Under the pieces are notes generated by a model. That model worked only from the letters and a program-made list of their open reading frames with translations. It searched no databases and had not been told where the DNA came from. A stretch of DNA of 64,000 nucleotides from a virus, in IMG/VR virus record IMGVR_UViG_3300035698_007246, positions 1 through 64,000 of that record; one strand, given 5' to 3'. Shown piece after piece: positions 32,823-53,280 of the stretch. Both the position numbers and the translations under genes were made by a program. How positions within the stretch are numbered: the first letter of the stretch is position 1; each line of letters starts with the position of its first letter.

Positions 32823-32837
32823 AAAGAGTGGATTGAT

Positions 32838-33470: not shown

Positions 33471-33510
33471 TTTTCTTTAAAAAGAATTTAAATTTTAATT
33501 AAAAAAACTC

Positions 33511-33539
33511 TTGACTTCGATATGAACATAACATATCTT
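33511..33539 (+). promoter_or_regulatory. sigma70-like promoter (TTGACT, weaker -10)
   Basis: CTCTTGACTTCGATATGAACATAACATATCTT. Confidence 0.4.
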
Positions 33540-33581
33540 TAAAGCGTAATTAAAATTTAAATTCTTTCAAGGGAGATTCAA

Positions 33582-34451
33582 ATGAATAACAACACAAAAG
33601 TAAAATTCGAAGACCGTATAGACACTGCACAAGAAGCACTTGAAGCTGCTGGTTTGAATTATACTGTTGCACAAGCTGAAATTATGAACACTACTACTGG
33701 TACTGTTTCTGATAAATGTAAGTCTTTGTATCGCACTGATACAAATCAAGAGCTTGGTATTGTTGGTAAAAAATATGAACCGGTTCAAAACCACAAAGCA
33801 TTCTCCTACTTCGACACTATTTGTGAAATGCATGGTGCTCGATATTCTGAAGCAATCTCTTTCAATGGTGGAGAGAAAGTAATCCTCAAAGCTGAATTCC
33901 CCCGTCCAGAAGTTGTTGGTCGCAATGATGAGATTAAGAAACAATTCTGTCTTATCAATGGTTTCAATGGTGGTGTTGGAGTCATGGCTACATTTATGGT
34001 CAATAGGCTTATATGTTCTAACGGTCTTCGTGGTACGGTTCGTGACGCAAAGAATTCATTTCGATTCAAACATACTACTAATGTAAATTTTCGTATGGAA
34101 GAGGCTCTCAAGGTACTTGCTGCTGGAACTGATTATTTTAATCAATTCATACGTATGGCAAATGAATTGACACAGAAACAAATTGATTCTGCAATGGTTG
34201 ATAAGTTTTTGGTAAGTGTATTTGGTGACCCTCAATCAACACGTGGTGCAAATAAACAGGAAGAGATTAAAGGGTACATTGAAAGTGGTATTGGTAACTC
34301 TGGAAGCACTGCATGGGATTTATATAATGGTGTAACTGAGTATGTGAGTCATCATCATGGCAAAGATGAAATGAAACGTCTTGAGTATGCTAACTTTGGT
34401 GCTGGTGTTCAACTTTCTGAAACTGCATTTAAAGTTGCGTATAATCTTTAA
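33582..34451 (+). CDS. hypothetical protein
   Basis: 289-aa ORF with strong GGGAGA RBS. Own promoter and terminator, which suggests high expression. Confidence 0.5.
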   Translation: MNNNTKVKFEDRIDTAQEALEAAGLNYTVAQAEIMNTTTGTVSDKCKSLYRTDTNQELGIVGKKYEPVQNHKAFSYFDTICEMHGARYSEAISFNGGEKVILKAEFPRPEVVGRNDEIKKQFCLINGFNGGVGVMATFMVNRLICSNGLRGTVRDAKNSFRFKHTTNVNFRMEEALKVLAAGTDYFNQFIRMANELTQKQIDSAMVDKFLVSVFGDPQSTRGANKQEEIKGYIESGIGNSGSTAWDLYNGVTEYVSHHHGKDEMKRLEYANFGAGVQLSETAFKVAYNL

Positions 34452-34455
34452 TTCA

Positions 34456-34480
34456 AAGGGGAGCAATCCCCTATTTTAAT
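34456..34480 (+). terminator. rho-independent terminator
   Basis: AGGGGAGCAATCCCCT followed by ATTTT. Confidence 0.5.
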
Positions 34481-34528
34481 TGGGAGGTGCAATATGTCAA
34501 ATTTTTTAAAAACATTGGAACCATTATT

Positions 34529-34714
34529 ATGAAAAGAAAAAAATTATTAAATACAAAAATTAAATGCAATTCCTGTAAAAAGGAATTCGCGTATACTGGT
34601 AAGACTGGTGATATTCAATTTAGACCGTATCCATATATGGTAGAAATAGAAGGTGATAACACCAAATTTTGGTTATGTGATGATTGTTGTAATAGAAATG
34701 CTGAGGAAATATGA
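34529..34714 (+). CDS. small zinc-ribbon protein
   Basis: CNSCKKE...CDDCC cysteine pairs. Confidence 0.35.
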   Translation: MKRKKLLNTKIKCNSCKKEFAYTGKTGDIQFRPYPYMVEIEGDNTKFWLCDDCCNRNAEEI

Positions 34715-34995
34715 AAAAACACACAATAGAATGTACTCGAATTATAGTTATGTTAATATCATTGATATTTTATTTGGTTGTGATTGCGTGGAGAATGGAT
34801 GGTGTTGACTTATCAATGATGAATTTGGCATGTGGGGCACCAACGATGTTCTACTTGATGTTTGTGGTAACAAAGAATCGGGAACCGTATCATATATTTT
34901 CTTGTCTGTTAGGGATTCCGTTGTTTATGTTTATGGTAATTGATGTTTTAATTTTAACAATAACAGGTAGTTGGAAAACTACATTGGGGGTGTAA
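34711..34995 (+). CDS. membrane protein
   Basis: Three hydrophobic helices. ATGA coupling. Confidence 0.4.
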   Translation: MKKHTIECTRIIVMLISLIFYLVVIAWRMDGVDLSMMNLACGAPTMFYLMFVVTKNREPYHIFSCLLGIPLFMFMVIDVLILTITGSWKTTLGV

Positions 34996-34999
34996 AGAT

Positions 35000-35209
35000 A
35001 TGAGTAAATTAAATGAAAATGAATTTAAAGAAGTAACTAAAACATTTATAAACAGATTGAGTAATGAAATGTCAACCGCAGGGTGTAATGATTTGGATGA
35101 TGATGAATTTCCTACAACTGTTTGTGAGAAGTTTGATTCTGATTTTGAGTTATTATACGAGTGGAGTAGTATGATAGTTAAACAAAAGGAATTAAAAGAT
35201 GAAAAATGA
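35000..35209 (+). CDS. small acidic protein
   Basis: 69-aa ORF. Confidence 0.35.
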   Translation: MSKLNENEFKEVTKTFINRLSNEMSTAGCNDLDDDEFPTTVCEKFDSDFELLYEWSSMIVKQKELKDEK

Positions 35210-35942
35210 TAGTTTAGGTGATAGAATGAAGGGATATGAACACATATCCAGAATATTATTAACTCGTAGAATGCCACTCATCATCCGTGTGGATGGAAAA
35301 GCGTTCCACTCATTGACAAAGAAAATGGATAAACCATATGATATCACGTTTAGTCACTGCATGATGAGGACTGCACGTTTTCTTCTTGAGAACATTATGG
35401 GTGCAAAGCTCGCTTATGTTCAATCAGATGAGATTTCTGTATTGTTGACAGACTACGATTCATTGTCAACAGAGCCTTGGTTTCAAAAGAATATACAGAA
35501 AATCGTTAGTGTGTCTGCAAGTATGGCGACCATGAAATTTAATGAGTTGTATCGTACACATGTTCATTCATCAAAGAAAGTCAAAGATTATGGATTGTTT
35601 GATTCCAGAGTATTTGTTATTCCGAAGGAAGAGGTGTGTAATTATTTTATTTTTCGACAGCAAGACGCTGTTCGTAATTCCATTCAGGGATTAGGGCAAG
35701 CTCATTTCTCTCACAAAGAACTTCAAGGAAAGTCTTGTAATGCGATTCAGGATATGCTGATGGTTGATAAGAAAATCAATTGGAATGATATAAGCCCATA
35801 TTTTAAACGTGGTGGGTGTTTCTATCGCAACTTAAGCATTGATACTGATGAAAATACAAACAATGTTGTTACTGATGTTGCACCTCCGACATTCACACAA
35901 GACCGTGATTATATTGAGAAGTATTTGTTTCTCGAAAAATAA
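35199..35942 (+). CDS. Thg1-like protein (tRNA-His guanylyltransferase family, 3'-5' nucleotidyltransferase)
   Basis: N-terminal GYEHISRILLTRRMPLIIRVDGKAFHSLTKKMDKPYD ... AYVQSDEISVLL matches the Thg1/TLP palm-domain landmarks (RIDG+FH, carboxylate-bearing SDE). Confidence 0.55.
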   Translation: MKNDSLGDRMKGYEHISRILLTRRMPLIIRVDGKAFHSLTKKMDKPYDITFSHCMMRTARFLLENIMGAKLAYVQSDEISVLLTDYDSLSTEPWFQKNIQKIVSVSASMATMKFNELYRTHVHSSKKVKDYGLFDSRVFVIPKEEVCNYFIFRQQDAVRNSIQGLGQAHFSHKELQGKSCNAIQDMLMVDKKINWNDISPYFKRGGCFYRNLSIDTDENTNNVVTDVAPPTFTQDRDYIEKYLFLEK

Positions 35943-35945
35943 CAC

Positions 35946-35974
35946 TTGACAAGACTTGTACCATTAATTATATT
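35946..35974 (+). promoter_or_regulatory. sigma70-like promoter (TTGACA-N17-TATATT)
   Basis: CACTTGACAAGACTTGTACCATTAATTATATT. Confidence 0.55.
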
Positions 35975-36005
35975 GGTAGGGTAAATTAAATTGAAAGGAA
36001 TTATT

Positions 36006-36338
36006 ATGAATAAAAAGTTATTAGGGTTTTACATTTTTTTGGCGTTGGTTATTTTGAATGCTTCATATAAATCATTCATGGCTCCATCTTTAAATGAAAT
36101 ATCAATCACAAATTTAACAAAAGAATTGAAAGAATTGAAAGAAACAGTTGTTACTATTAAAAAAGAAGCACATGTTATTAAAGAGATGTCTTACTTTGAA
36201 GGTCAACGTGACGCTATTACTGGAGATATTCGTATTGAGGAAATTGAAAAAGGAACCGGGAAATATAAATGGGGTAAATCACCGTGGGATAGCGGTGAAA
36301 GTCCAGTATATAAAATAGATGAGAAATTAACTAATTAA
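36006..36338 (+). CDS. membrane-anchored protein
   Basis: AAAGGA RBS. N-terminal TM helix. Confidence 0.4.
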   Translation: MNKKLLGFYIFLALVILNASYKSFMAPSLNEISITNLTKELKELKETVVTIKKEAHVIKEMSYFEGQRDAITGDIRIEEIEKGTGKYKWGKSPWDSGESPVYKIDEKLTN

Positions 36339-36362
36339 ATAAATTAACAACGGAGGTTCTTT

Positions 36363-36989
36363 ATGAGACCAATTGTTTGGGTAGTTGATACTCAAAAAGA
36401 TTTTATTGATGAAGACGGAAAATTATCTGTGCCTGGTGCAGTTGATATAAGACAAAATATTCTTTCTACACTTTTGACAGCAGAAAAGTTTGATGTTTCT
36501 ATTTATGGAAGCGTGGACGCACATGAAAAAAATGATGTGGAATTTTTAGATTATCCAGTTCATTGTGTGATTGATACAGATGGTCAAAAGAATATACCTG
36601 AAAGTATTATCAGTCACCCGGATAACGTATACTATGTCCCAAACAATGGGCAGGGAGTTGACATGTCTTCGTTTGAAGGGGCACGTCAAGTGTACTTTGA
36701 GAAGCAGTGTGTCAATATATGGGATAAGTGTAAAGGACAGCCCGACAATATTCAAACGCTTCTCCGTATGACTGACATCACTGATGTGTATGTTGTTGGT
36801 GTGGCTACAGAACTATGTGTTCTTGAAGCTGTATTGGGTTTTCTTGCTCGTGACTATAACGTATTCGTTGTTGAAGACGCAACAAAAGGATTAAGTGTTG
36901 ACGGTGAAGTACAAGCTAAAGATAAAATGGCGTCTTTTGGAGCTGAGTTTATCACAACAAAACAATTAGAATGTATGTTTGACAAATAG
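36363..36989 (+). CDS. isochorismatase-family cysteine hydrolase (second copy)
   Basis: VWVVDTQKDFIDEDG (DxQxDF). VVGVATELCVLEA (nucleophile Cys). Confidence 0.5.
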   Translation: MRPIVWVVDTQKDFIDEDGKLSVPGAVDIRQNILSTLLTAEKFDVSIYGSVDAHEKNDVEFLDYPVHCVIDTDGQKNIPESIISHPDNVYYVPNNGQGVDMSSFEGARQVYFEKQCVNIWDKCKGQPDNIQTLLRMTDITDVYVVGVATELCVLEAVLGFLARDYNVFVVEDATKGLSVDGEVQAKDKMASFGAEFITTKQLECMFDK

Positions 36990-37015
36990 TGATAACTTTT
37001 TCAAAGGAGTATTAA

Positions 37016-37864
37016 ATGGATTATAAAAAAGTATATGAAAATATTCAAAATAATTTTAGACAGTATCTATTTAAGTCTGGATTGAAAGCCGTAGTCATTG
37101 GTGAGAGTGGTGGTCTTGATAGTGGTGCGATTAGTGCACTTGCTCGTCCGGTATGCGATGAGCTTGGTGTGAAACTTATTGGTAGATACATTGGAATTGA
37201 AACCAATGGTGATGACGAGTTAGAACGTGCTAATGCTATTGGTAAAGCCTTTTGTCATGATTATAAAGTAATTGATATGTCCCACATCTCTGTAGATTTG
37301 CGTACTTTCGTAGAAGAGATGGAAGGAATGGAAACTGATTTTAAAGCAATACCAAGAAAAATACGTAATGGTAATACTAAAGCCAGACTTCGTATGATTT
37401 ATCTTTACAATCTTGCTCAGTTACATGGTGGAATGGTTCTCAGTACAGATAATTTGACAGAGTTTATGTTAGGGTTTTGGACATTACATGGTGATGTTGG
37501 GGATTATGGGATGATTCAATATCTTAAGAAGACTGATGTGTTTGGTCTTGTTAAGTGGATTGCATTAAATGTCTGTGGTGGCACAGGTAGTGTTTGTCGC
37601 AATGTTTTACTTGCATGTTATGACGCAATACCAAAAGATGGTCTTGGTATTAGTAAATCTGATGTGGAGCAATTAGGTGCAGAAGATTATTATGAAGTTG
37701 ATGACGTTCTATATGGTTTTATTGACGCTGTGATTGATGATGACCTTGGTACGGCAGAGAAGTTGAAACCACATCCTGTTGTCCAAAGACATTTTGCGTC
37801 TCAATTCAAAAGGAGTAATCCATATAATATTCCAGAGGGTGAGCTTACACGGGGGGCAACATAA
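37016..37864 (+). CDS. nadE: NH3-dependent NAD+ synthetase (NadE-like)
   Basis: AVVIGESGGLDSGAISALA PP-loop in the NadE position. Length 282 aa. Confidence 0.55.
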   Translation: MDYKKVYENIQNNFRQYLFKSGLKAVVIGESGGLDSGAISALARPVCDELGVKLIGRYIGIETNGDDELERANAIGKAFCHDYKVIDMSHISVDLRTFVEEMEGMETDFKAIPRKIRNGNTKARLRMIYLYNLAQLHGGMVLSTDNLTEFMLGFWTLHGDVGDYGMIQYLKKTDVFGLVKWIALNVCGGTGSVCRNVLLACYDAIPKDGLGISKSDVEQLGAEDYYEVDDVLYGFIDAVIDDDLGTAEKLKPHPVVQRHFASQFKRSNPYNIPEGELTRGAT

Positions 37865-38034
37865 TGGGGAGAATTGGATTATACGGTGGGTCTTCAACAA
37901 TGATTCGTGAAGCAGTCTGGAACATGGAAACGAAGGGACTCCCACCAAAATTCTTTGATTGGTGTGATGTTAATGTGTTTACTCAAATTTATAACGAAAA
38001 ATTATATACACCTTGTAGTTAGGAAGTGGAAGAG

Positions 38035-39537
38035 ATGTCTGATTTGAAACAAGAAAAAAATGATGTGAGTGCAGTTGAAGCTGAAGCGGTTACAATGACT
38101 GAAGAAAAGATTGTAGTACCGAAGAAGATGTTTAAAAGAGACAGTCTTTTTAAACATCTCTATGACTCATATGGAAACATTTCAAATGTGTTGGGTCTTA
38201 TCGACATGTTATTTAAAAATGGTGAGAATGAAAATGGAGTTTATAAAGCGGTAAAACGATACACACCGTTTGCGTTATTCGGATATGACCTCGGTGGTCG
38301 TATAAAAGATTTTTACAAAAACCAAAACAGAGATGTTTCCGATGATAGGAGCGACAGAATTAGAGCCATTTTGGAAATTGAGCAAACTAATAATTACTGG
38401 ACGCATGATGATGATGGATGTAAATTAAATTCAGAAATTCTTGAATGGTTACTTAAGTCTCCTTTAGTACACAAATTTAAAATATTAAAATATGTTGAGC
38501 TTAATGAAAACAAAGTGATGAGCTATGTTGGTTCTGTAGAGAACTTTTCTGAGATATCAATGGTGATTGAATACAAAGAAGTTAAGATTTTAATAAATTG
38601 CAATGTGTCAGGCGGCAATGATAGTATCAAAAGAAAATTTTGTTCGTTTAATGGTTTATGTGTCGAACGTTCAGTAAAGTTTAATAGATTTGAATTTTTG
38701 AAATCAATCTATCTTGAATACCTTGAGACTCTCAATTTTAGAGAGAACGTATTATCATATGACCATGATATTAAAAAACGTTCTCGTATTAAAGATTGTG
38801 ATTTTGATTTTCAAACATTGAATTTCAAGAAATTGAAGAGTGAAATAATCACCACTCTTGATAATGGGGAACGTAGAGGTTATATTCTTGCTGGGAATCC
38901 CGGAACAGGTAAGACTTCTGTTCTGTTGAGATTGGAAAAGGAATTAACAAAATACCCAATTCTGTATGTGGCTCCTCATAATTTACAGAGTGACAACACA
39001 ATTAGTATTCTTTTCTCGTTTCTAAAAACAATCAGTCCTTGTCTCGTGGTTTTGGAAGACATGGATAGTTATGCACTGAATGATAAGAATGAACGTACTG
39101 GTGCGTTGTTATCTTATATTGATAACAGTAAGGACCCTATCGAGGTAGTGTTCATTGCAACTATTAATGACAGTTGTAAGTTGAATTATTCTATTGTACG
39201 TCCGGGACGTTTTGATGAAATAATTGATGTACAAGAGCCGAAGTTCAATGGAGAAATTTATAATGTGATGAAGACACATTACAATAAACAGAAATTGAAA
39301 AATAAACATTATGCTGATAAAGAGTTTATAAAACAAAGTAAAATTTCTTGGATGACATTCTGGAGACTAAAGAAATATAAATTCACTCAAGCTGAGTATT
39401 GTGAAATAGCTCAGAAAATAATGTTACAAAAATGGAATTTCAATAATAAAACTTTTATTAACAGTCGTGATAAGTTATTGGATTCTCGTAAATCAATTAA
39501 GAAATATAAAAGAGAAAATAACAAAGGTAGAGGTTAA
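38035..39537 (+). CDS. AAA+ ATPase (classic AAA clade)
   Basis: Walker A GNPGTGKT, Walker B VVLEDMD, second-region-of-homology RPGRFDE. Confidence 0.55.
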   Translation: MSDLKQEKNDVSAVEAEAVTMTEEKIVVPKKMFKRDSLFKHLYDSYGNISNVLGLIDMLFKNGENENGVYKAVKRYTPFALFGYDLGGRIKDFYKNQNRDVSDDRSDRIRAILEIEQTNNYWTHDDDGCKLNSEILEWLLKSPLVHKFKILKYVELNENKVMSYVGSVENFSEISMVIEYKEVKILINCNVSGGNDSIKRKFCSFNGLCVERSVKFNRFEFLKSIYLEYLETLNFRENVLSYDHDIKKRSRIKDCDFDFQTLNFKKLKSEIITTLDNGERRGYILAGNPGTGKTSVLLRLEKELTKYPILYVAPHNLQSDNTISILFSFLKTISPCLVVLEDMDSYALNDKNERTGALLSYIDNSKDPIEVVFIATINDSCKLNYSIVRPGRFDEIIDVQEPKFNGEIYNVMKTHYNKQKLKNKHYADKEFIKQSKISWMTFWRLKKYKFTQAEYCEIAQKIMLQKWNFNNKTFINSRDKLLDSRKSIKKYKRENNKGRG

Positions 39538-39832
39538 TGGATGTTAAACAAGTAATTGTTAGGTGACTTGTGATAATATTGATGTTATGTTAGAAAAATC
39601 AGTGTATGGTATTCTAATTAAGTTAATATTATTTTTTAAACAGAATTCATTTTTTATTTTATCATTATGTTGATGTAATTATTTTCAAAGTTTGGGAGGT
39701 TGTGATGTATAAAGGAATTGCTGGTGCTATTAAAATATTGTTTATTATTTGTTGTATAAGGAAATTAGTTGAGATAGCAATATGGTTATTTAACCATGTA
39801 AGTATAAATTGGAAATAAAGGAGTAACAAACA

Positions 39833-40312
39833 ATGATTCAAGAAGCTGTGAACACAATTGTTGAAAAGATTGCAGATGCAGAAGTAAAAGCTGCTGTTAA
39901 AGAAAAAGTTGATAACAGAATTGACTCTTTGGTAACAACTCAAATCAATAAGGTTTTGGAAAAAGGTATTGCAGGTGCAATTGAAAAGACCCTCACTAAA
40001 AAGTTCAACCCAATCTTGAAACAGATTGAGAAAATAGATGTTACGTCTATTGTTGCTAATATTGCTAAAATTAGTCTTGGTGATGAAATTGATGGGATGA
40101 TTACAGAGTTGAGTGGCATTATCAAATTAAAAATCAAAACTGGTATTGAACAAGCAAAACTCATTGAAGTTGACGTATCCTCTGTGAACGTGAAAGCCAA
40201 TGAAATAATTGCGGAAGAGATTGAAGACATCCTTGATGATGATGACGATGTTAAAGATGTGATTCAAAGGGGTGTGGTGAATCATCTTAAAGAAAAATTG
40301 AAGGTGGAATAG
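39833..40312 (+). CDS. hypothetical protein (amphipathic/coiled)
   Basis: GGAG RBS. I/K/E-rich. Confidence 0.45.
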   Translation: MIQEAVNTIVEKIADAEVKAAVKEKVDNRIDSLVTTQINKVLEKGIAGAIEKTLTKKFNPILKQIEKIDVTSIVANIAKISLGDEIDGMITELSGIIKLKIKTGIEQAKLIEVDVSSVNVKANEIIAEEIEDILDDDDDVKDVIQRGVVNHLKEKLKVE

Positions 40313-40314
40313 TT

Positions 40315-40737
40315 ATGGGTTATAAAACATCCTTTAGTGGGTCATTTAAATTAAATAAACAACTTTCAGTAGAACATCTCAAGAAGTACAGAGACTTTTG
40401 TAACACCCGACATGAGAATGAATGGACTGCAAAGGTAGGTTCTATGTATTGTCAGTGGATAGCAAACGAAGATGGTACTGAGATTGAAGCTGAAGGTCAA
40501 ATATTTTATGAGTTTCAGAAATGGATTAAGTTTTTGATTGCTAATTTCTTTACCACTCATGGATATTCTTTAACAGGGATTGTTAAGTGGCAAGGTGAAG
40601 AGATTGGTGATATTGGAATAATTGCAATAAAAGATAATGAAGTAAAGATACTATTCTTTGATTTGTTTGAAAAGTCGGATGATAAAATCTTTGCTTCGAT
40701 GTTTCCCGACCCTGTTACTATTGAAAATAAAAAATAA
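40315..40737 (+). CDS. hypothetical protein
   Basis: Starts 3 nt after previous stop. Confidence 0.45.
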   Translation: MGYKTSFSGSFKLNKQLSVEHLKKYRDFCNTRHENEWTAKVGSMYCQWIANEDGTEIEAEGQIFYEFQKWIKFLIANFFTTHGYSLTGIVKWQGEEIGDIGIIAIKDNEVKILFFDLFEKSDDKIFASMFPDPVTIENKK

Positions 40738-40749
40738 ACATTGACATTG

Positions 40750-40788
40750 AAATCCCCCTGAATTAATTTTAGGGGGATTTCTTTTTAT
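40750..40788 (+). terminator. rho-independent terminator
   Basis: AAATCCCCCT...AGGGGGATTT followed by CTTTTT. Confidence 0.7.
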
Positions 40789-40815
40789 GGTGGTCAAATA
40801 AAAATAAAATAAGTC

Positions 40816-40844
40816 TTGACATTGATTTGACCAAATATTATATT
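40816..40844 (+). promoter_or_regulatory. sigma70-like promoter (TTGACA-N17-TATATT)
   Basis: GTCTTGACATTGATTTGACCAAATATTATATT. Confidence 0.55.
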
Positions 40845-40883
40845 AAGTTTGAAATTTTAAAGTACTTGAAAGTTGGTGGAATA

Positions 40884-41936
40884 ATGAGTCTTTGGTATGA
40901 TGATGTAGTTGAAATTGAAAAACGTTTTAATGATGGTCGTAATAAGCTACAGTTCTTAAATGACCTATTTGATGAAAGAAATATTGCTGGTTATGACCGT
41001 GAAGAAAGACTATCTGAGTTTTATATATTGTATCAATGGAGTTTAGATACATGTGGTAATGCGTTGAAAATTACTAATTATGATAGAATGATTTTGGGTA
41101 AGCCGGATTTTGGATTACCTGATATTTTAATTCAAACAAGAGAGCAGATATTTGAAGAGTTAAAAGCTCATGGGATTGATAGTGTTTGTGCTGAAAGTAG
41201 TTCAGATTTACCTGCACATGATATCCAGTGTTCAGTGTGTGGTGATATGTGGAACATCGACAACTGCACAGACGTTCATGTTGGTAGTGATTATGAGATG
41301 TTTGATTTGAAAGACTATGTTGGGAAACCAATTAGCTTTGTTCAGGAAGAATTAAAAAAGAAACGAAACGCGGAATATAGATTGTTCTGGGGTGACAGCA
41401 ATACCAGTATTAAAAATACAAAATATATTGATTTGACTCCTGAATATAAAAACCCGAAAAGTGATTATCAAAAACGATGTGTCTTGAATAAAAATGGATG
41501 GATTGGTAAAAAATACGCTGATGAACATTTCGAAGGTGAATATATTATTCAGGGGGGTGATGAAGCCAATATCATTATTTATAAGTACAGACACAAAAAA
41601 TGCAAACGTAATAGTATGGTGGAAAACAATTTAGAATTCTTTAAAGAAATTTTCAAAGAAGCAGGAATAGAAATTGTTAAAATAGCAAACATTCGGAATC
41701 AATATTGTGATTGTATTGAATGCTCACCGTGGTTAACTGTTACAACTAAAAAGGGTGATATCACTCTTGGGTGGAGAAAACGAGTAATCAATATAGATTT
41801 TGGTGCTATGAATGATACAGTTGATATACCGACTGTGTTTGCAAAGGAAGACGTGACAACAAGTTCTAATTCTATTCATGCATGGGGTAAAGACAAATGC
41901 GTTGAATATTTGAAGACATTTTATAATTTAATATAA
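40884..41936 (+). CDS. hypothetical Cys-rich protein
   Basis: ATG after GGTGGA RBS, downstream of the promoter. The ATG at 40827 lies inside the promoter. Confidence 0.45.
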   Translation: MSLWYDDVVEIEKRFNDGRNKLQFLNDLFDERNIAGYDREERLSEFYILYQWSLDTCGNALKITNYDRMILGKPDFGLPDILIQTREQIFEELKAHGIDSVCAESSSDLPAHDIQCSVCGDMWNIDNCTDVHVGSDYEMFDLKDYVGKPISFVQEELKKKRNAEYRLFWGDSNTSIKNTKYIDLTPEYKNPKSDYQKRCVLNKNGWIGKKYADEHFEGEYIIQGGDEANIIIYKYRHKKCKRNSMVENNLEFFKEIFKEAGIEIVKIANIRNQYCDCIECSPWLTVTTKKGDITLGWRKRVINIDFGAMNDTVDIPTVFAKEDVTTSSNSIHAWGKDKCVEYLKTFYNLI

Positions 41937-41964
41937 TTCAAAAATCTTTTTCAAAGGGGGATGT

Positions 41965-42477
41965 ATGAATAATAGTTGGTTAATGTATTGGATATTAATA
42001 CTGGTTATAATGTTTGGTGCATTTGATTCTGATGGTGCAACATTTTCAGGAAACAATTATCCAGACTCACTTAAATTGTATGAACCAATTAAAAGTGATT
42101 ATCAAAATAAGCATAGACCGTTCATTGATGTGGACTTCTATCTTAAGGGTAAAGTAATTGAGTCAAAAGAGACAACAATTTCTGATGATTATGTGCCTGT
42201 GACATACTATTGGTTGTTTGTTAATACAAAAAAGGGAATTGCTAATTGTAAAGTTGTTGATAGTATTTATAACAAATATGATGTTGGTAATAAAATTGGT
42301 GTGGATACAGCAAAACCTAAAGCCGAAATAAATCAGGGAAATTCTGACAATACACAACCACCACAAGATGATGATGTCCGTGGTTATGGTATCATAGTAA
42401 CTATATTTATTGCGTTTATAAGTGCTGTGTTATTATTTGGAATAATTACATTTTTTATATCAATGTTGGAGGCGTAA
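41965..42477 (+). CDS. membrane protein (N- and C-terminal TM helices)
   Basis: GGGGGA RBS. Hydrophobic termini. Confidence 0.4.
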   Translation: MNNSWLMYWILILVIMFGAFDSDGATFSGNNYPDSLKLYEPIKSDYQNKHRPFIDVDFYLKGKVIESKETTISDDYVPVTYYWLFVNTKKGIANCKVVDSIYNKYDVGNKIGVDTAKPKAEINQGNSDNTQPPQDDDVRGYGIIVTIFIAFISAVLLFGIITFFISMLEA

Positions 42478-42478
42478 T

Positions 42479-43699
42479 ATGAAATTATTTAGGAAACATT
42501 GTATTGAATCATTAGCGGATACAGATTTATATAAATTAACTATGTTGTATGTATTCTGGAAAAAATATAGAGACCATAAAGGTACATATAAATACACTTG
42601 TCGTAGTGACCATAATTTGATACCTTATAAATCAGAAATATTTAAAGAAATTCATCACCTATCTACATTAAAATTTCAAAAAACAGAATTGGAATACATT
42701 AAAAATCTTGGTTTATTTAATAATGATTTTATGGAATATTTAAAGACATTTCAATTGAATATTAAAGATTTAAATATATTTGAACATAATGGTAAATTAC
42801 AAATAGAAGTAACAGGAAATGTTATAAATTCTATGATGTATGAAGTATACATTTTAGCAATCGTATCTGAAGTATATAATAGAAATGTGTATGACGGTAT
42901 AGATATAACTGAAGGTGAGAAAAGATTAAAGACTAAAGTTGAAACTATACATAGTTCTAATATTGTTGGAATATATGCAAAATATGTTGATATGGGAACT
43001 CGTAGACGATTTTCTCATTTGTGGCAAGAATATACTATTAAATATCAATTAGATTACATTAAAAATCTTGGTTTATTTAATAATGATTTTATTGGCACAA
43101 GTAATGTATATTTTGCTATGAAATTTGGGTGTAAATGTTACGGAAGTCAGGCTCATGAAATTCAAAGTTTTTATCAATCCATGTGTCATGTTAAAGATTC
43201 ATTAAAAAAATGTTTTGATGATTGGATTGATGTGTATGGAGCTACGTTAGGAACTGTATTGTCTGATACATTAACAGTTGATGTGTTTTTAAAAAATTTT
43301 GATAAAAAATATGCAATATTATTTAATTCTGTCAGAGAAGATTCTGCTAATAATTTGGAAGAGTTTGTGGACAAAATAATAAATCATTATAAAAAATTGG
43401 ATATTGTCCCAACAACAAAATCTATAATATTTAGTAATAGTTTAAATTTTAATAAAGCAATACATATTGCAACCTATTGTAATGGTAAAATAGGATGTTC
43501 GTTTGGAATAGGGACAAATCTTACTAATGATATGGGTGATGATGTTACTCCAGTACAAAGTGTAATGAAACTTATTTTTGCAGGTAAAGAATTTAATGAT
43601 ATGAGACCTGTTTGTAAACTTTCGGATATATCAGAAAAAAGTTGTGGTGGCTCTCAACAACAAATTGATTATGTTAAGCATGAACTTGGATTAATTTAG
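42479..43699 (+). CDS. pncB: type II phosphoribosyltransferase, nicotinate/nicotinamide PRTase family (PncB-like)
   Basis: N-terminal LADTDLYKLTM (compare PncB LDTDAYKLHM), GTRRRFS, GTSNVYFA...GSQAHE in PncB order. 406 aa. Contains a 37-nt perfect internal direct repeat. Confidence 0.55.
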   Translation: MKLFRKHCIESLADTDLYKLTMLYVFWKKYRDHKGTYKYTCRSDHNLIPYKSEIFKEIHHLSTLKFQKTELEYIKNLGLFNNDFMEYLKTFQLNIKDLNIFEHNGKLQIEVTGNVINSMMYEVYILAIVSEVYNRNVYDGIDITEGEKRLKTKVETIHSSNIVGIYAKYVDMGTRRRFSHLWQEYTIKYQLDYIKNLGLFNNDFIGTSNVYFAMKFGCKCYGSQAHEIQSFYQSMCHVKDSLKKCFDDWIDVYGATLGTVLSDTLTVDVFLKNFDKKYAILFNSVREDSANNLEEFVDKIINHYKKLDIVPTTKSIIFSNSLNFNKAIHIATYCNGKIGCSFGIGTNLTNDMGDDVTPVQSVMKLIFAGKEFNDMRPVCKLSDISEKSCGGSQQQIDYVKHELGLI

Positions 43700-43744
43700 T
43701 AATATGTTTTTTAAAATATCATTTATGTTATTAAAATTTCAATA

Positions 43745-43753
43745 TGGTATAAT
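43745..43753 (+). promoter_or_regulatory. extended -10 promoter (TGGTATAAT)
   Basis: TGnTATAAT 36 nt upstream of the next ATG. No -35 needed. Confidence 0.4.
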
Positions 43754-43788
43754 ATATATTTGTTTAAAAATGAATAGGAGATATAATT

Positions 43789-44043
43789 ATGATAACTGTA
43801 TTAACAAAGGAAGAATGCATACAATTTAATTGTGAGAGTTATGCTAAAGAAAAGAAGTTTCTTGAGGTATTAGATTATCATAAAACTAATAACACTGGGA
43901 AAACATTAAAAGTTTCATCAGAGCAATTCGATTTGGGTGAAAAGAAAATAGACCCAATGGATGTGGACTTTATTGAACAAGAAAATCGAAAGTATTATTC
44001 TGAAGTGGGTACTGCTATCAAAAATTTGATTGGAGATTTGTAA
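43789..44043 (+). CDS. hypothetical protein
   Basis: TAGGAGA RBS. Confidence 0.4.
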   Translation: MITVLTKEECIQFNCESYAKEKKFLEVLDYHKTNNTGKTLKVSSEQFDLGEKKIDPMDVDFIEQENRKYYSEVGTAIKNLIGDL

Positions 44044-44627
44044 TGGTTAAGAATTTACATACAGCAAATGTCAGGAACAAATTGTCTCCGTTACAATTGG
44101 TTATTGATTTGCTTACAAATAAAGATTCTAAAGTGACTCTTGAATTTATACAAGAAGTTGCTAAGCAGGGGAAGACATCAATCCTTGGGATTTTAAAAGA
44201 GCTTGATGGAATAGAAGCTCATGGTAATGAGGTTATCGAGAATCCCCTTATTGAAAAGGCTACTGATAGAATATTGCCTACCAATCTCGAAGATGTGCTT
44301 ATTGATATAATGAGAACTGCTACTCCAGAATCTTGTACGAAATTTAAAAATGTCCCTGAAGACATGTGTGGTGATGGTGGGTATGTTTTCAATGGTCGTG
44401 CTATGAGAAATAATTATGACCTGTGGATTAAATCTGATATTACAAAATGGTTTGCCGAACGCAATGTATTTTATGCTGATGACTCATGTGTTATTATTTT
44501 CAGGGCATTGTGGTATAAGTTAAATGGGAAAGAATATGATATGGAACCTGATGTTAAAAGATTTCAAGCACATTGGGATTCACTTAATCATGATATTAAA
44601 AAAGAATATAACGAAAGGAATATATAA
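44043..44627 (+). CDS. hypothetical protein
   Basis: ATGG overlap coupling. Confidence 0.4.
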   Translation: MVKNLHTANVRNKLSPLQLVIDLLTNKDSKVTLEFIQEVAKQGKTSILGILKELDGIEAHGNEVIENPLIEKATDRILPTNLEDVLIDIMRTATPESCTKFKNVPEDMCGDGGYVFNGRAMRNNYDLWIKSDITKWFAERNVFYADDSCVIIFRALWYKLNGKEYDMEPDVKRFQAHWDSLNHDIKKEYNERNI

Positions 44628-44663
44628 TTATGAGTCATTTTTGCAGTATTAGTAGTTGGAGAT

Positions 44664-45335
44664 ATGATGTTTAAATATTTGGGAATTACAGGGGCACCTG
44701 CCTGTGGTAAAAGTTATTTCAGCAAAATGGTTGTTGAAGTATGTAAAGAATATTTCATAGAAGTTCATCACATTGATTTTGATAAACTCGCTCATGATAT
44801 ATACGTTGATGATTATATGGGAGTGTGTTATAAAATTAAAGAACAATGGAATGGTGTTGTTAAAGTTAATAATCTCAACACATGGATTCAATCAGCTACT
44901 GTTGACAGAAAGAAACTCGGTGAGATTGTTTTTAATAATCCTGGTTGTCTTAGTACGTTAGATGATATTATGAAGGAACCAATGAAATGTAAAATAAAAG
45001 AAACTCTTAAAGATAAGACTGGTCTTATTCTTATGGATTGTGCTTTAATGGCGGAACATAAGTTGTTTGATTATTGTGGTGGTAAATGTGTTGTGATTGA
45101 TGTTCCAAAAGAAATTCAACACAAACGATTAAAAGAGCGTGGGCTTTCTGATGATTTCATTGAAAATATGTTGGGTAGCCAATTGCTTAGTAAAGGTAAA
45201 ATGAAAAGGTTGGTAGATAATGATGTTAATGTTTGGTATGAAGATTTATATCATAAAAGGAAACCAACGGTTCAGAAATTAGTTATAAGAAATATATTAA
45301 GAAATTTGGTTTTTAATGAAGGGGACTTGTTGTAA
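44664..45335 (+). CDS. P-loop nucleotide/nucleoside kinase-like protein
   Basis: LGITGAPACGKSYFSK Walker A at extreme N-terminus (dephospho-CoA kinase / nucleoside kinase-like architecture). Confidence 0.35.
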   Translation: MMFKYLGITGAPACGKSYFSKMVVEVCKEYFIEVHHIDFDKLAHDIYVDDYMGVCYKIKEQWNGVVKVNNLNTWIQSATVDRKKLGEIVFNNPGCLSTLDDIMKEPMKCKIKETLKDKTGLILMDCALMAEHKLFDYCGGKCVVIDVPKEIQHKRLKERGLSDDFIENMLGSQLLSKGKMKRLVDNDVNVWYEDLYHKRKPTVQKLVIRNILRNLVFNEGDLL

Positions 45336-46820
45336 ATGGAACAAATCATATGGACTGATGAACAGGAAGCAATCATCGGAAGCGAAGGAGACATCAAAGT
45401 GAATGCGATAGCTGGGTCAGGTAAGACATCAGTGTTGGTTGAATACTGTAGAAGACGACCGGATGTAAAGTTTTTATATCTGGTATTCAATGCTTCAGCC
45501 AAAGCAGACGCTATTATTAAATTTAAAAATGCAGGTGTTAGTAATGTGGAAGTGTACACTGCACATTCATTAGCATATCGAAAAATTGTATTCCTACATG
45601 GATACAAGGTTAAGAACACTTATAATGCTTACGAAATTAAAAATATTTTAGGACTTGAAGGTATTGGATATTTTGGTTTCATTTTAGCGACTCATGTAAG
45701 CCGTTTGATGGAGCTTTACTTTAATTCAACATATGAGTCCCCTGATGAATTAAAAGACCGTTATAAACATGCTCTGTCGTCTGAGGAGGCAGTGGTATTC
45801 TATACAGCTAATAAAGATATTATTATGAGTGGTGTTAAGGAATTAATAAATCGAATGGATGATGGTGACATGCCTGTGACCCATTCATTTTATCTTAAGA
45901 AATATCAATTGGGTAATCCTAAATTACCGTATGATTGTGTACTCTATGATGAAATGCAAGATAGTTCAGGTGTTATGATTGATATTTTCATGAAACAAAA
46001 ATGTCAAAAAATCTGTGTTGGGGATGATAATCAGGCAATATATGGATGGAGAGGTGCTGTAAATGCTTTAAAGGGTATACATTTTAAAGAATTACCATTA
46101 ACATATAGTTTCAGATTCAATCAGAACATTGCTGATAAAGCAATGAGGTGTCTTGATTTGAAAAAGATTGTTAATCCTAAGTTTGAAAGGTCTGATATTG
46201 TTGGGACTAATACTAATCCTTCAAAAGAAAATTCAGCAACGGCTGTGCTTGCCAGAACAAATCTTTTATTATTTGAGGAAGCTATGTGTGTTGTGGTTAA
46301 TGATGATACTAAAAAGATTTATTTTGAAGGTGATTTAAAAAGTTATACATTCATGAATGGAATATCTATTTATGATGTGTATAATTTACATTATGGTAAC
46401 AAGTCTTACATTAGAAATCCTCTTATAAAAATGATGAAGAAACCGTCTGACTTGGATGATTATATTAAAAAAACTGAGGATAAAAACTTAGAGATGTTGG
46501 TGAAGATTGTAAACAAATATGGTAAAAGTTTACCATCGAAGTTCAAAAGATTGGGTGAAATCAATCTTCCAAAAGATAAACGACATGAAGCAGATATAGT
46601 GTTTACTACAATTCATAAGGCCAAGGGCTTAGAATACCACACTGTCAAGCTAATGGATGATTTCATCACAAAGGCAAGTATTTATGAGAAAAAGAAAAAG
46701 AAAACAGATAAAATTAATATTGCTGGGATTATAGAAGAATGTAATATACTTTACGTTGCAATTACCCGTGTTAAAAATGAATTAATTTTACCTGAATCTT
46801 TAGAATTTTTAAATGAATAG
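45336..46820 (+). CDS. SF1 UvrD/PcrA-like DNA helicase
   Basis: Walker A AIAGSGKTS after EQEAII (motif I). Motif VI TIHKAKGLEYHTVKL. Confidence 0.5.
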   Translation: MEQIIWTDEQEAIIGSEGDIKVNAIAGSGKTSVLVEYCRRRPDVKFLYLVFNASAKADAIIKFKNAGVSNVEVYTAHSLAYRKIVFLHGYKVKNTYNAYEIKNILGLEGIGYFGFILATHVSRLMELYFNSTYESPDELKDRYKHALSSEEAVVFYTANKDIIMSGVKELINRMDDGDMPVTHSFYLKKYQLGNPKLPYDCVLYDEMQDSSGVMIDIFMKQKCQKICVGDDNQAIYGWRGAVNALKGIHFKELPLTYSFRFNQNIADKAMRCLDLKKIVNPKFERSDIVGTNTNPSKENSATAVLARTNLLLFEEAMCVVVNDDTKKIYFEGDLKSYTFMNGISIYDVYNLHYGNKSYIRNPLIKMMKKPSDLDDYIKKTEDKNLEMLVKIVNKYGKSLPSKFKRLGEINLPKDKRHEADIVFTTIHKAKGLEYHTVKLMDDFITKASIYEKKKKKTDKINIAGIIEECNILYVAITRVKNELILPESLEFLNE

Positions 46821-46869
46821 ATAATTATCTATATGTGACACATTATCATTTCTTGAATTATGAATTAAT

Positions 46870-46990
46870 TTAATGATTAGATTTAATTAAATTTTCTTCT
46901 GCGGTTAAAATTTGTAAATTAGAATAATGAAAACAATGTTGTTGCTCTTCAGGCTTTGATAAATTAAAAGAAGTACATGGTTTAACGTGG
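46870..46990 (-). pseudogene. C-terminal fragment of HNH homing endonuclease
   Basis: Encodes only IDHVKPCTSFNLSKPEEQQHCFHYSNLQILTAEENLIKSNH. About 80% nt identity to the 3' end of the HNH pseudogene at 59966-60544. Confidence 0.45.
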
Positions 46991-47240
46991 TCAATATAAT
47001 ACAAAAGGAGAAGTTGATAAATGGAAACGGAAACAGAAAAATTAAAAGAAAATGATTGCAAGTTAACCGACGCTAAAGGAGTAGTTGTGAAAACATTTAG
47101 ATTGCAGAAAATATTGGGAATATTTGGAAATGCTTTAATGATTTATTTGTTGCTTGGGTTTGTGGAACCAAATCGAATGTTTCAAGTTGCATTAATGTTG
47201 GGATGTTTTGGATATGTTAATGCAACGATTTGGAGAAATT

Positions 47241-48230
47241 ATGGATAAATCAATTTTAATTACAGGTGGATGTGGATTCATTGGAAGTAATCTCGTAAGG
47301 ATGGTTGCTAACCGATTTCCTACATCAAGTTTAATTGTTGTAGATAGTTTGACATATGCCGGAGATAGAAAAAATATTGAAGGTGTTGATGTTATATTTC
47401 ATCAGTTTGATATTACAAATTCTGTTGAAATGGAATTCTTGTTTGCTAATTATGACATTAGGATGGTGTTTCATTTGGCAGCGGAAAGTTTTGTAGATAA
47501 TTCAATTGATTCATCTAATGTGTTTGCGAAAACAAATGTTCTTGGTACTCATACATTGATTGATGTTTCTAATAGATATTGGAAAAAGATTGATTATGGT
47601 GAATGTAAATTTATTCATGTGTCTACAGATGAAGTATATGGTGCATTAGGTAAATATGATGAGTCATGGACGGAAGAGTCTCCATATTTACCAAACAATC
47701 CATATTCAGCGTCAAAAGCTGCGTCTGATATGTTTGTTAGAGCATATGTTAATACATATGGGTTTCCAGCTATCATTACACATTGTAGTAATAATTATGG
47801 CATTTATCAACATACCGAAAAATTAATACCAACAGTTATTGAACGTATATATAATGATGAACCTATTCCAGTGTATGGACAAGGATTACAAATACGAGAT
47901 TGGATTCCGGTTGATAAACACTGTGATGCATTAATATTCATTGCTAATAAAGGACGTGATGGGGAAGTTTATAATATTGGTGCAGATAATGAAGTGACTA
48001 ATATTGATTTGGTTAAAAAGATATGTGAGATTATGGGAAGAGAACCTGAAACTCTAATATCATATGTCAAAGACCGCCTTGGGCATGATTTTAGATACTC
48101 TATAAATAGTTCGAAGTTACAGGGGCTTGGGTGGAAACCTTGTGTTGAATTTAAATTAGGATTGGAAGAAACTGTTAAATGGTATGTTGATAAATTAAAT
48201 AAGGAGTGTAGTGATGGGACCAACGTATAA
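47241..48230 (+). CDS. NAD-dependent sugar-nucleotide epimerase/dehydratase (RmlB-like dTDP-glucose 4,6-dehydratase family)
   Basis: ILITGGCGFIGSNL Rossmann motif and YSASKAASD (YxxxK) catalytic motif. Start at ATG after GGAGAAA. Confidence 0.6.
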   Translation: MDKSILITGGCGFIGSNLVRMVANRFPTSSLIVVDSLTYAGDRKNIEGVDVIFHQFDITNSVEMEFLFANYDIRMVFHLAAESFVDNSIDSSNVFAKTNVLGTHTLIDVSNRYWKKIDYGECKFIHVSTDEVYGALGKYDESWTEESPYLPNNPYSASKAASDMFVRAYVNTYGFPAIITHCSNNYGIYQHTEKLIPTVIERIYNDEPIPVYGQGLQIRDWIPVDKHCDALIFIANKGRDGEVYNIGADNEVTNIDLVKKICEIMGREPETLISYVKDRLGHDFRYSINSSKLQGLGWKPCVEFKLGLEETVKWYVDKLNKECSDGTNV

Positions 48231-48630
48231 AGAAGCTGATGTACAATGGAAGTTGCTAACTGATAGGATTGCAACTATTAAGAGAAGTGTGGGATATCTA
48301 ATTAAAGAACATATCTTGTATAGTGTGGTTCAAGAAAGTGTTGACCACATTGATGAGATATTAAATGATTTGATTACGTTCACTGAAAAACAAATCGGTG
48401 AAGATTTCAATGTTGTGTTGACTGATGTTGGTATTAAAACGATTCAAGTAATAAAATTAGTGAGAGAGCTTACTGGTAAAGGATTACGTGATTCTAAAGA
48501 GATTGTTGATAACGTTAATTTTGGTGATAGCCCAATGTGTATTGGTACTTTTAAATTGTGTGTGGCTTCTGATATTAGAGATAGATTTATCAAAGTTGGT
48601 GCAACTGTTTCAATTGAGGGGGTTAAGTGA
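48211..48630 (+). CDS. protein with ribosomal bL12 (L7/L12) C-terminal-domain-like fold
   Basis: VIKLVRELTGKGLRDSKEIVD closely parallels the bL12 CTD helix VIKAVRxxTGLGLKEAKDLVE. The C-terminal beta-alpha segment (KVGATVSIEG) also fits. Confidence 0.45.
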   Translation: MMGPTYKEADVQWKLLTDRIATIKRSVGYLIKEHILYSVVQESVDHIDEILNDLITFTEKQIGEDFNVVLTDVGIKTIQVIKLVRELTGKGLRDSKEIVDNVNFGDSPMCIGTFKLCVASDIRDRFIKVGATVSIEGVK

Positions 48631-53257: not shown

Positions 53258-53280
53258 CTTTTGGATAGGAGGAATATATT

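What the first reader, a model, noticed from the sequence alone, without database searches (positions are those of the whole stretch)
42695..43091. 37-nt perfect direct repeat inside the PncB-like gene encoding a duplicated YIKNLGLFNNDF peptide
TACATTAAAAATCTTGGTTTATTTAATAATGATTTTA occurs at 42695-42731 and again at 43055-43091, 360 nt apart and in frame. The phosphoribosyltransferase therefore contains the same 12-aa peptide twice. Typical PncB/NAMPT proteins have this segment once. This could be an internal duplication/insertion, a recombination scar that might toggle the gene by deletion between repeats (loss of 360 nt keeps the frame), or an assembly artefact.
Basis: seen in the sequence. 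Interest (0 to 1): 0.5.

Follow-up and report, generated by a model that had tools for sequence, protein, structure and literature searches.

The report
Short copied patch inside phage PncB
A phage nicotinate phosphoribosyltransferase gene carries a recent 38-46 base copy of one of its own segments pasted into a surface loop 360 bases downstream; this is a real but ordinary mutational footprint, not an inserted domain or a genetic switch.

Summary
The repeat is real. It is 38 nt perfect (42695-42732 = 43055-43092), or 46 nt at 44/46, spaced 360 nt in frame, and is the only dispersed exact repeat of 20 nt or more in the window outside tandem arrays.

It lies in an intact 406-aa PncB gene (both Pfam domains; AF2 pLDDT 95.9; TM about 0.9 to PncB crystal structures).

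- **Copy 1** (aa 73-84) is the native, family-conserved segment of the N domain.
- **Copy 2** (aa 193-204) sits in the helix-to-strand loop before the GTSN motif. There this protein is 5 aa longer than its 63%-identical syntenic relative and longer than all 120 closest homologues.
- **The 120 aa in between** are core PncB, including GTRRRFS, not an insertion.

Best reading: a recent intragenic template switch or short-patch conversion, probably seeded by microhomology. It adds about one helix turn at a loop that varies from 21 to 36 aa in other phage PncBs.

- **Assembly artefact:** unlikely, but no reads were available.
- **Deletion between the copies:** it would give an in-frame but dead enzyme, and it is irreversible, so it is not a toggle. 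No such allele was found.
- **In passing:** the neighbouring NadD gene has been reduced to a 52-aa in-frame remnant.

Low interest.

The parts
42479..43699 (+). Intact 406-aa nicotinate phosphoribosyltransferase (PncB) gene that contains both repeat copies
   Evidence: ORF. Pfam NAPRTase_N 7e-30 and NAPRTase 6e-43. PDB 2im5 E=1e-56. AF2 pLDDT 95.9. Foldseek TM 0.89-0.91 to 3os4, 2im5 and 1yir.
42687..42732 (+). Copy 1, the donor and native segment. The perfect 38 nt are 42695-42732 and encode Y73-F84, at the conserved ELxYLxxLxFxxxDF segment of the N domain.
   Evidence: The segment length here (17 aa between E70 and L88) equals that of 116 of 121 family members. The model shows the end of helix 68-76, a loop, and the start of helix 82-89.
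43047..43092 (+). Copy 2, the recipient and derived patch. The perfect 38 nt are 43055-43092 and encode Y193-F204, in the loop between helix 180-197 and the strand that carries GTSN.
   Evidence: The window has 29 aa between R176 and G206, against 21-27 in 120 homologues. In the codon alignment with L002, the identical flanks CAA TTA GAT and ACA AGT AAT enclose 21 nt in L002 and 36 nt here. pLDDT for block 191-200 is 86, against 97 in the P0001 model.
42733..43046 (+). Sequence between the copies: core PncB (rest of the N domain, linker helices, the GTRRRFS strand/loop and the start of the barrel). It is not an insertion.
   Evidence: It aligns without unusual gaps to all homologues and to PDB 2im5 and 1yir. 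The invariant residues E122, G173, R175 and R176 lie here.
37864..38022 (+). Context: 52-aa in-frame remnant of a NadD-like (CTP_transf_like) gene in the same NAD module
   Evidence: The syntenic relative L062 has a 212-aa NadD in this slot. The remnant joins about the first 10 aa to about the last 42 aa, at a G-TCT-T microhomology.
36363..37864 (+). Context: PncA-like isochorismatase (36363-36989) and NadE NAD synthase (37016-37864), the other Preiss-Handler genes
   Evidence: Precomputed Pfam on the identical contig L001.

Best explanation
The second copy is the footprint of one recent, small, illegitimate DNA event inside an otherwise normal phage PncB gene. About 38 nt of the native N-domain segment (site 1, 42695-42732) were copied into a loop-coding position 360 nt downstream (site 2). 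The mechanism was a replication template switch or a short-patch ectopic gene conversion. The patch replaced about 21 nt with 36 nt, a net gain of 15 nt or 5 aa. Islands of pre-existing similarity probably guided it: AATT-GA- on the left, AATCTT inside, and TTT-T on the right. The patch is in frame and falls in a naturally length-variable surface loop at the N-terminal end of the GTSN strand, so it only lengthens a helix by about one turn. The enzyme is most likely still active. Shown: the repeat, which copy is native, the +5 aa anomaly, the intact fold prediction, and the conserved catalytic residues. Inferred: the mechanism, the microhomology (from a 63%-identical outgroup), the recency, and retained activity.
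For: - **DNA-level copy:** the 38-nt identity cannot be chance or convergence.
- **Site 1 is native:** it fits the family in pattern and length (17 aa, as in 116 of 121 members). Site 2 is the longest of 121 (29 aa against 21-27).
- **Outgroup comparison:** the nearest relative P0001/L002 (63% identical; the ORFs flanking PncB correspond in position and size, and the downstream 84-aa ORF is homologous) has nucleotide-identical left flank AAA TAT CAA TTA GAT and near-identical right flank (GGA vs GGC, then ACA AGT AAT). Between them it has AAT CTT TCT CGT TCT GTG TTT CTT. This shares AATCTT and TTT with the patch.
- **Left edge:** the 46-nt pair has 2 mismatches only at its 5' edge (ELE against QLD), and QLD is also the state in L002. 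The left boundary therefore lies in pre-existing similarity.
- **No other case:** none of 120 homologues has an internal repeated 6-mer, and the longest exact intragenic repeat in 55 viral PncB genes is 13 nt or less.
- **Tolerant loop:** it is 21-36 aa long in other phage PncBs.
- **Structure models:** helix 180-197 and loop 198-203 here, against helix 182-195 and loop 196-200 in P0001. All other elements come in the same order, and the fold matches PncB crystal structures at TM about 0.9.
- **Conserved residues:** all 22 family-invariant residues are present, including H226 in the AHE motif.
- **Same class of event nearby:** a microhomology-mediated event has hit the neighbouring NadD gene.
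- **Known process:** short template switches and microhomology-mediated templated insertions are established (PMC7954356, PMC8421209).
Against: - No reads and no close strain variants were available, so neither the ancestral allele nor the exact breakpoints are observed. The microhomology is inferred from a relative with only 63% protein identity.
- The left microhomology is imperfect (6 of 8).
- Activity of the enzyme with the longer loop is untested. Local model confidence drops to 86.
- The only other public record of the gene is 100% identical over 15.9 kb and may derive from the same sample. Independent confirmation is therefore weak.
Confidence: 0.75

Rival explanations
1. Assembly or sequencing artefact: the second copy does not exist in the phage DNA and was created by mis-assembly or chimeric reads.
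For: The sequence comes from a metagenome. The only other record (ENA ERZ27316532 k141_228561) is 100% identical over 15,879 nt and may be the same data. No reads could be examined.
Against: A 38-nt repeat is far shorter than the final k of 141 implied by the contig name (MEGAHIT naming, own knowledge). The 141-mers spanning left flank, copy and right flank must therefore exist in reads. Mis-assembly at repeats joins existing sequences; it does not write a new in-frame copy into a loop while keeping both flanks collinear with homologues. The ORF stays open and the fold prediction is intact.
Confidence: 0.05
2. Functional recombination substrate: the direct repeats exist to delete 360 nt at useful frequency and so switch PncB off in part of the population.
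For: 38-nt perfect direct repeats 360 nt apart are a plausible substrate for slippage or single-strand annealing (own knowledge). The deletion would stay in frame. An in-frame microhomology deletion has already occurred in the adjacent NadD gene.
Against: Deletion is irreversible, so it cannot toggle. The product would lack aa 85-204, including GTRRRFS, and so would be a null, not a variant enzyme. The exact 286-aa product is absent from 15 billion proteins. No relative of any allele was found in the viral, JGI or GTDB collections. No homologue shows a comparable arrangement. The in-frame spacing is already explained by survivorship of an in-frame patch.
Confidence: 0.05
3. Selected neofunctional duplication: the YIKNLGLFNNDF peptide was recruited at site 2 because it provides a second copy of an interaction surface, for example for oligomerisation or a partner protein.
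For: In both contexts the first nine or so residues are modelled alike, as a helix C-terminus followed by a loop. The patch has been retained in an intact gene.
Against: The case is unique among 121 homologues and 55 viral genes. Zero substitutions indicate a very recent event with no time for selection to be visible. The other long loops at this site in phage PncBs are unrelated in sequence. Local confidence is lower.
Confidence: 0.08
4. Diversity-generating retroelement or mobile-element signature: a template/variable repeat pair, or target-site duplications flanking an inserted element.
For: It is a pair of near-identical direct repeats with 2 mismatches.
Against: No reverse transcriptase was detected among the window ORFs scanned: about 40 ORFs of 120 aa or more by Pfam, plus the precomputed Pfam for 32479-48357. 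The mismatches (G/A and A/T) lie outside the perfect core and match the outgroup's native flank. The 46-nt length is far below typical DGR repeats (own knowledge). The DNA between the repeats is core PncB, not a foreign element.
Confidence: 0.01

Closest known systems
Bacterial nicotinate phosphoribosyltransferase PncB (PDB 3os4 Yersinia pestis, 2im5 Porphyromonas gingivalis, 1yir Pseudomonas aeruginosa)
   Same: Same two-domain architecture (NAPRTase_N plus NAPRTase). TM 0.89-0.91 and 30-32% identity. The invariant GTRRR, GTSN, AHE (H226) and SFGIGT motifs are present.
   Different: It has a 5-6 aa longer helix/loop before GTSN, made from a copy of its own residues 73-84. The window/P0001 clade deviates at several near-invariant positions, for example REDSA instead of RHDSG and FSNSL instead of FSDGL.
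pncB-nadD-nadE (Preiss-Handler) gene clusters of 'NAD-jumbo phages' (Li et al., Microbiome 2024, PMC11662467)
   Same: It is a large-phage-like, single-strand gene array that encodes PncA-like, NadE and PncB close together, alongside NAD-consuming or ADP-ribose-related genes such as a weak sub-threshold match to NAD-dependent DNA ligase and a NADAR domain.
   Different: NadD is reduced here to a 52-aa remnant. The genome size is unknown because only 64 kb were seen. There is no close relative in INPHARED or IMG/VR.
Short-range template switching and microhomology-mediated templated insertions (PMC7954356; PMC8421209)
   Same: A short stretch identical to a nearby donor appears at a second site. 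It replaces a few bases, the junctions show microhomology, and the donor is unchanged.
   Different: Many described short template switches are inverted (copied from the opposite strand), whereas this one is direct and 360 nt away. The event is inferred from a single sequence plus a distant outgroup; it was not observed as a polymorphism.
Deletion between short direct repeats in phage and bacterial genomes (slippage or single-strand annealing; own knowledge)
   Same: The repeat pair is a potential substrate. The neighbouring NadD remnant shows the outcome of such an event at a 6-nt microhomology.
   Different: No deletion allele of PncB was found. The repeat is a by-product, not evidence of a programmed mechanism.

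Membership tests
PncB / NAPRTase (type II phosphoribosyltransferase) | Both Pfam domains (NAPRTase_N PF17767 and NAPRTase PF04095) score above the gathering threshold | tested here: met
   104.3 bits against a cut-off of 32.6, and 147.7 bits against 20.8
PncB / NAPRTase (type II phosphoribosyltransferase) | Fold superposes on solved PncB structures | tested here: met
   AF2 pLDDT 95.9. Foldseek TM 0.89-0.91 and rmsd 1.8-2.1 A to 3os4, 2im5 and 1yir.
PncB / NAPRTase (type II phosphoribosyltransferase) | Conserved catalytic and PRPP-binding motifs, including the His of the AHE motif (the phosphohistidine of enteric PncB, own knowledge) | tested here: met
   All 22 columns invariant in 121 sequences are present: R175, R176, G206, S208, H226, R286, D288, S289, G345, T346, K364 and the rest
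PncB / NAPRTase (type II phosphoribosyltransferase) | Nicotinate plus PRPP gives NaMN (enzymatic activity) | not testable with these tools
   Needs an enzyme assay of the 406-aa protein and of a loop-restored variant
Templated insertion / short template switch | The inserted sequence is identical to a nearby donor that stays unchanged | tested here: met
   38 of 38 nt identical. The donor site has the canonical family length and pattern.
Templated insertion / short template switch | Microhomology between donor and recipient at the switch points | tested here: inconclusive
   AATT-GA- (6 of 8) on the left. AATCTT and TTT are shared with the outgroup's recipient site. The true ancestral recipient sequence is unknown.
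Segmental (tandem) duplication or inserted domain of 360 nt / 120 aa | The intervening sequence is extra relative to homologues or is itself duplicated | tested here: not met
   The intervening 108 aa align to core PncB in all homologues and PDB chains. Only 46 nt are repeated.
Diversity-generating retroelement (TR/VR pair) | A nearby reverse transcriptase and adenine-specific mismatches over a repeat of about 100 nt or more | tested here: not met
   No RT domain in the ORFs scanned. The repeat is 46 nt, and its 2 mismatches lie at the edge and match the native flank.
Phage Preiss-Handler NAD module (NAD-jumbo phage type) | Complete set pncB plus nadD plus nadE (with or without pncA) encoded by the phage | tested here: not met
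   PncA-like, NadE and PncB are present. NadD is only a 52-aa remnant inside the window. The genome outside the 64 kb was not seen.

The most novel reading that the evidence does not exclude
The repeat pair is not a neutral scar but part of an ongoing, population-level dismantling or modulation of the phage's NAD salvage module. NadD has already been lost by an in-frame microhomology deletion. The 38-nt repeats would make PncB throw off in-frame 360-nt deletion nulls at appreciable frequency, giving heterogeneous phage populations with and without NaMN synthesis. Alternatively, the duplicated peptide provides a new interaction surface.
Probability: 0.06. Interest if true: 0.45.

Novelty: new member of a known kind. 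Interest (0 to 1): 0.15.

Why it matters
It matters little on its own. It is a clean natural example of a short intragenic templated insertion that lengthens an enzyme loop without breaking the gene. It sits in a phage NAD-salvage module, next to a NadD gene that a microhomology deletion has destroyed. Together the two events show how small illegitimate recombination remodels auxiliary metabolic genes in large phages. They also warn annotators that 'complete' phage NAD pathways should be checked gene by gene. No new biology follows unless population data show a polymorphism or a functional effect.

Tried and rejected
**Searches for close relatives or alternative alleles all came back empty.**
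- INPHARED blastn gave only two hits, each about 150 nt at around 70% identity.
- IMG/VR, JGI metagenomes and GTDB genomes, searched with 8-aa peptide patterns, returned nothing.
- The protein's 90% cluster contains only the protein itself and an unrelated 54-aa fragment.
- An exact look-up of the hypothetical 286-aa deletion product found nothing.

**Interpretations rejected.**
- Inserted 120-aa domain, tandem duplication, and mobile element with target-site duplication: the intervening DNA is core PncB.
- DGR: no reverse transcriptase, and the geometry is wrong.
- Convergence at the peptide level: the codons are identical, with a probability of about 1e-3.
- Reverse direction of copying (site 2 to site 1): site 1 has the canonical length and pattern, and site 2 is the outlier.
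- RNA pairing: the 14-nt AT-rich inverted matches of the repeat with 43381-43394 (I7/I8) were judged to be chance.

**Limits.**
The distance of the loop from the active site is therefore inferred from barrel topology, not measured.

Full report
**Observation.** The reported 37-mer occurs exactly twice on the + strand, at 42695-42731 and 43055-43091. There are no additional matches at up to three mismatches and none in 100 shuffles. The perfect identity is in fact 38 nt (to 42732 and 43092). It extends upstream as a 46-nt pair, 42687-42732 and 43047-43092, with two mismatches. The spacing is 360 nt. Both copies begin on codon boundaries (codons 73 and 193) of ORF 42479-43699 and encode YIKNLGLFNNDF.

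A census of all maximal exact repeats of 16 nt or more shows that every other repeat of 20 nt or more lies in 45-nt tandem arrays (53271-54625 and 8582-8646). The PncB pair is therefore the only dispersed one. About 5e-12 chance pairs of this length are expected. Even given the same peptide, identical codon choice has a probability of about 1e-3.

**The gene.** The ORF encodes a 406-aa protein with both NAPRTase domains well above Pfam thresholds.
- It matches PncB chains in the PDB at E=1e-56 (2im5).
- It gives a confident AlphaFold2 model (pLDDT 95.9, pTM 0.94).
- The model superposes on PncB crystal structures at TM 0.89-0.91.
- All 22 columns invariant across 121 family members are present, including R175/R176 of GTRRR, G206/S208 of GTSN and H226 of AHE.

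It is an intact PncB.

**Which copy is native, and what lies between.** In alignments with 20 and with 120 homologues, copy 1 occupies the conserved ELxYLxxLxFxxxDF segment of the N domain. Its length is canonical: 17 aa between E70 and L88, as in 116 of 121 sequences.

Copy 2 lies between the RRRFS helix and the GTSN strand. There the window protein has 29 aa between R176 and G206, whereas the 120 homologues have 21-27, with a mode of 23-24. No other homologue has any internal repeated hexapeptide. In 55 PncB genes from IMG/VR viral contigs the longest exact intragenic repeat is 13 nt or less.

The 108 residues between the copies align to core PncB, including GTRRRFS, in every homologue and in the PDB chains. 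Only the short patch at site 2 is extra.

**Nearest relative and mechanism.** The closest protein, P0001 (63% identity), lies on a phage-like contig, L002. The upstream 158-170 aa ORF corresponds in position and size, and the downstream 84-aa ORF is homologous (49% identity, E=3e-22). Other NAD and CoaE-type genes are nearby.

A codon alignment shows that the site-2 left flank is nucleotide-identical (AAA TAT CAA TTA GAT) and the right flank differs at one third-codon base (GGA vs GGC, then ACA AGT AAT). Between the flanks:
- L002 has AAT CTT TCT CGT TCT GTG TTT CTT.
- The window has TAC ATT AAA AAT CTT GGT TTA TTT AAT AAT GAT TTT ATT.

The window therefore carries a net +15 nt. The outgroup's recipient site shares AATCTT and TTT with the patch. 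The two mismatches at the 5' edge of the 46-nt pair (ELE against QLD) are the native state of each site. The left boundary thus lies in a pre-existing 6-of-8 similarity, AATT-GA-.

The simplest account is one templated event from site 1 to site 2, seeded by microhomology. It could be a replication template switch or a short-patch ectopic conversion. This is a known class of mutation (PMC7954356, PMC8421209). The perfect identity implies that the event is recent relative to the split from L002. The mechanism and the microhomologies are inferred, because the true ancestral allele was not observed.

**Structural consequence.**
- In the window model, copy 2 forms the last turn of helix 180-197, loop 198-203 and the first residue of strand 204-207.
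- In the P0001 model the equivalent elements are helix 182-195, loop 196-200 and strand 201-204.
- The patch therefore adds about four helical residues and one loop residue.
- All other secondary-structure elements follow in the same order.
- Mean pLDDT for residues 191-200 is 86, against 97 in P0001.

The loop precedes a barrel strand. By general alpha/beta-barrel topology (own knowledge) it should face away from the active site, which lies at the C-terminal strand ends.

The same loop is naturally variable in phage PncBs, at 21-36 aa, with unrelated insertions of up to +12 aa (L041, L048, L051, L053, L054). Retained activity is therefore likely, but untested.

One minor point: the first nine or so residues of the peptide adopt the same helix-end-plus-loop conformation in both contexts. 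The final residues are helical in copy 1 and strand in copy 2.

**Artefact?** The exact protein is on record on ENA contig ERZ27316532:k141_228561 (29,952 bp), which is 100% identical to window 32479-48357. This may be the same sample, so it is weak independent support.

However, a 38-nt repeat is far below k=141. Mis-assembly also does not create an in-frame copy that keeps both flanks collinear with homologues. I rate an artefact at about 5%. Read mapping remains the decisive test.

**Toggle or deletion?** Recombination between the copies would delete codons 85-204 or an equivalent set. It would remove half of the N domain and the GTRRR loop, leaving an in-frame but dead 286-aa product. It cannot revert, so 'toggle' is the wrong word.
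- The exact deletion product is absent from the 15-billion-protein collection.
- No close relative of any allele exists in the IMG/VR, JGI or GTDB scans.
- The in-frame spacing is explained by survivorship, because only an in-frame patch leaves an open gene.

**Context, and a by-product.** The window is a single-strand gene array with about 32% GC and a GC skew of +0.3. Domains found include:
- NADAR, Apyc1, Thg1, RNA ligase and RlaP;
- patatin, PP2C, and a weak sub-threshold match to a protein kinase domain;
- a weak sub-threshold match to NAD-dependent DNA ligase domains, a UvrD helicase and a sigma-70-like factor;
- a Preiss-Handler set: PncA-like 36363-36989, NadE 37016-37864 and PncB.

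This resembles the pncB-nadD-nadE clusters described for NAD-jumbo phages (PMC11662467).

A syntenic relative, L062, has the order PncA - NadE - NadD (212 aa) - AAA - ... - PncB - 84 aa - DUF6794 - ... - CoaE - UvrD - epimerase. In the window the NadD slot holds only a 52-aa ORF (37864-38022). It joins about the first 10 residues of NadD (MGRIGLYGGS) in frame to about the last 42. The nucleotidyltransferase core, including PPTxxH, is missing. The junction lies at a G-TCT-T microhomology that is present at both sites in L062.

So this module has already suffered an in-frame microhomology deletion. Illegitimate small-scale events clearly occur here. The phage-encoded pathway is also incomplete within the window.

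**Verdict.** It is not a switch and probably not an artefact. It is a new instance of a known mutational process in a known type of phage auxiliary gene. Interest is low, at about 0.15.

The most novel reading still open has a probability of about 6%. In that reading the repeats drive a real PncB-null polymorphism in a decaying or modulated NAD module, or the duplicated peptide has acquired a function.

Noticed in passing
window 37864-38022 (+): A 52-aa ORF between NadE and the AAA ATPase is an in-frame remnant of a NadD-like nucleotidyltransferase. It joins about the first 10 aa to about the last 42 aa, with about 155 aa (including the PPTxxH motif) deleted at a G-TCT-T microhomology. The syntenic relative L062 has the full 212-aa gene. 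No other CTP_transf_like gene was found in the window.
   Followed up: yes
window 53281-53793 and 54005-54595 (+): Two paralogous ORFs (170 and 196 aa) share a Cys-rich N-terminus (MKYCDCGAELP...C.DCKKKKR) and a C-terminus (RRLKSVP.KEYWDL...). Their middles consist of 5 to 8 or more tandem 15-aa units, (K/E)YY.NNKDKI.ER.K, with a 45-nt period and exact repeats up to 54 nt. No Pfam match.
   Followed up: partly
window 4330, 14841, 15146, 18022, 21694, 26358, 30800, 35921, 40716, 40791, 53204, 60642, 62103 (+): Thirteen copies of an extended promoter-like motif (A-rich, AACT(A/C)TTGACA, then 17 nt often containing CCCAT, then AATTATATT) lie upstream of + strand genes. They are probably a phage promoter class read by a sigma-70-type factor (family D2). 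A sigma70_r2 protein is encoded at 60723-61367.
   Followed up: no
window 16900-17391, 30013-30828, 35199-35942, 18604-19650, 10279-11223, 12636-13568: There is a dense set of counter-defence and RNA-repair-type domains: NADAR, anti-Pycsar Apyc1, Thg1, RNA ligase, RlaP and patatin. A cpYpsA SLOG domain, PP2C, a weak sub-threshold kinase-domain match and an AAA_33 kinase are also present.
   Followed up: no
window 42479-43699 and L002 1790-3001: The window/P0001 PncB clade shares derived residues at positions that are 90% or more conserved in the family: DMGTRRR instead of DFGTRRR, REDSA instead of RHDSG, FSNSL instead of FSDGL, and VYGA instead of EYRG. This points to a divergent but conserved phage subfamily. 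Altered kinetics or specificity were not examined.
   Followed up: no
window 9614-9682 and 9842-9910: A 69-nt direct repeat, 80% identical and 228 nt apart, lies in what looks like a non-coding stretch (family D7). It could be a repeated small RNA or a regulatory element.
   Followed up: no
L061 3602-5908: In the contig that carries P0006 (PncB 45% identical), the UvrD-type helicase next to PncB is 768 aa and carries intein-splicing and HNH domains. It is an intein-containing version of the helicase found at window 45336-46820.
   Followed up: no
window 1-64000: All ORFs of 120 aa or more that look genuine are on the + strand. GC is 0.28-0.34, and GC skew is uniformly about +0.3 across the whole 64 kb.
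   Followed up: no
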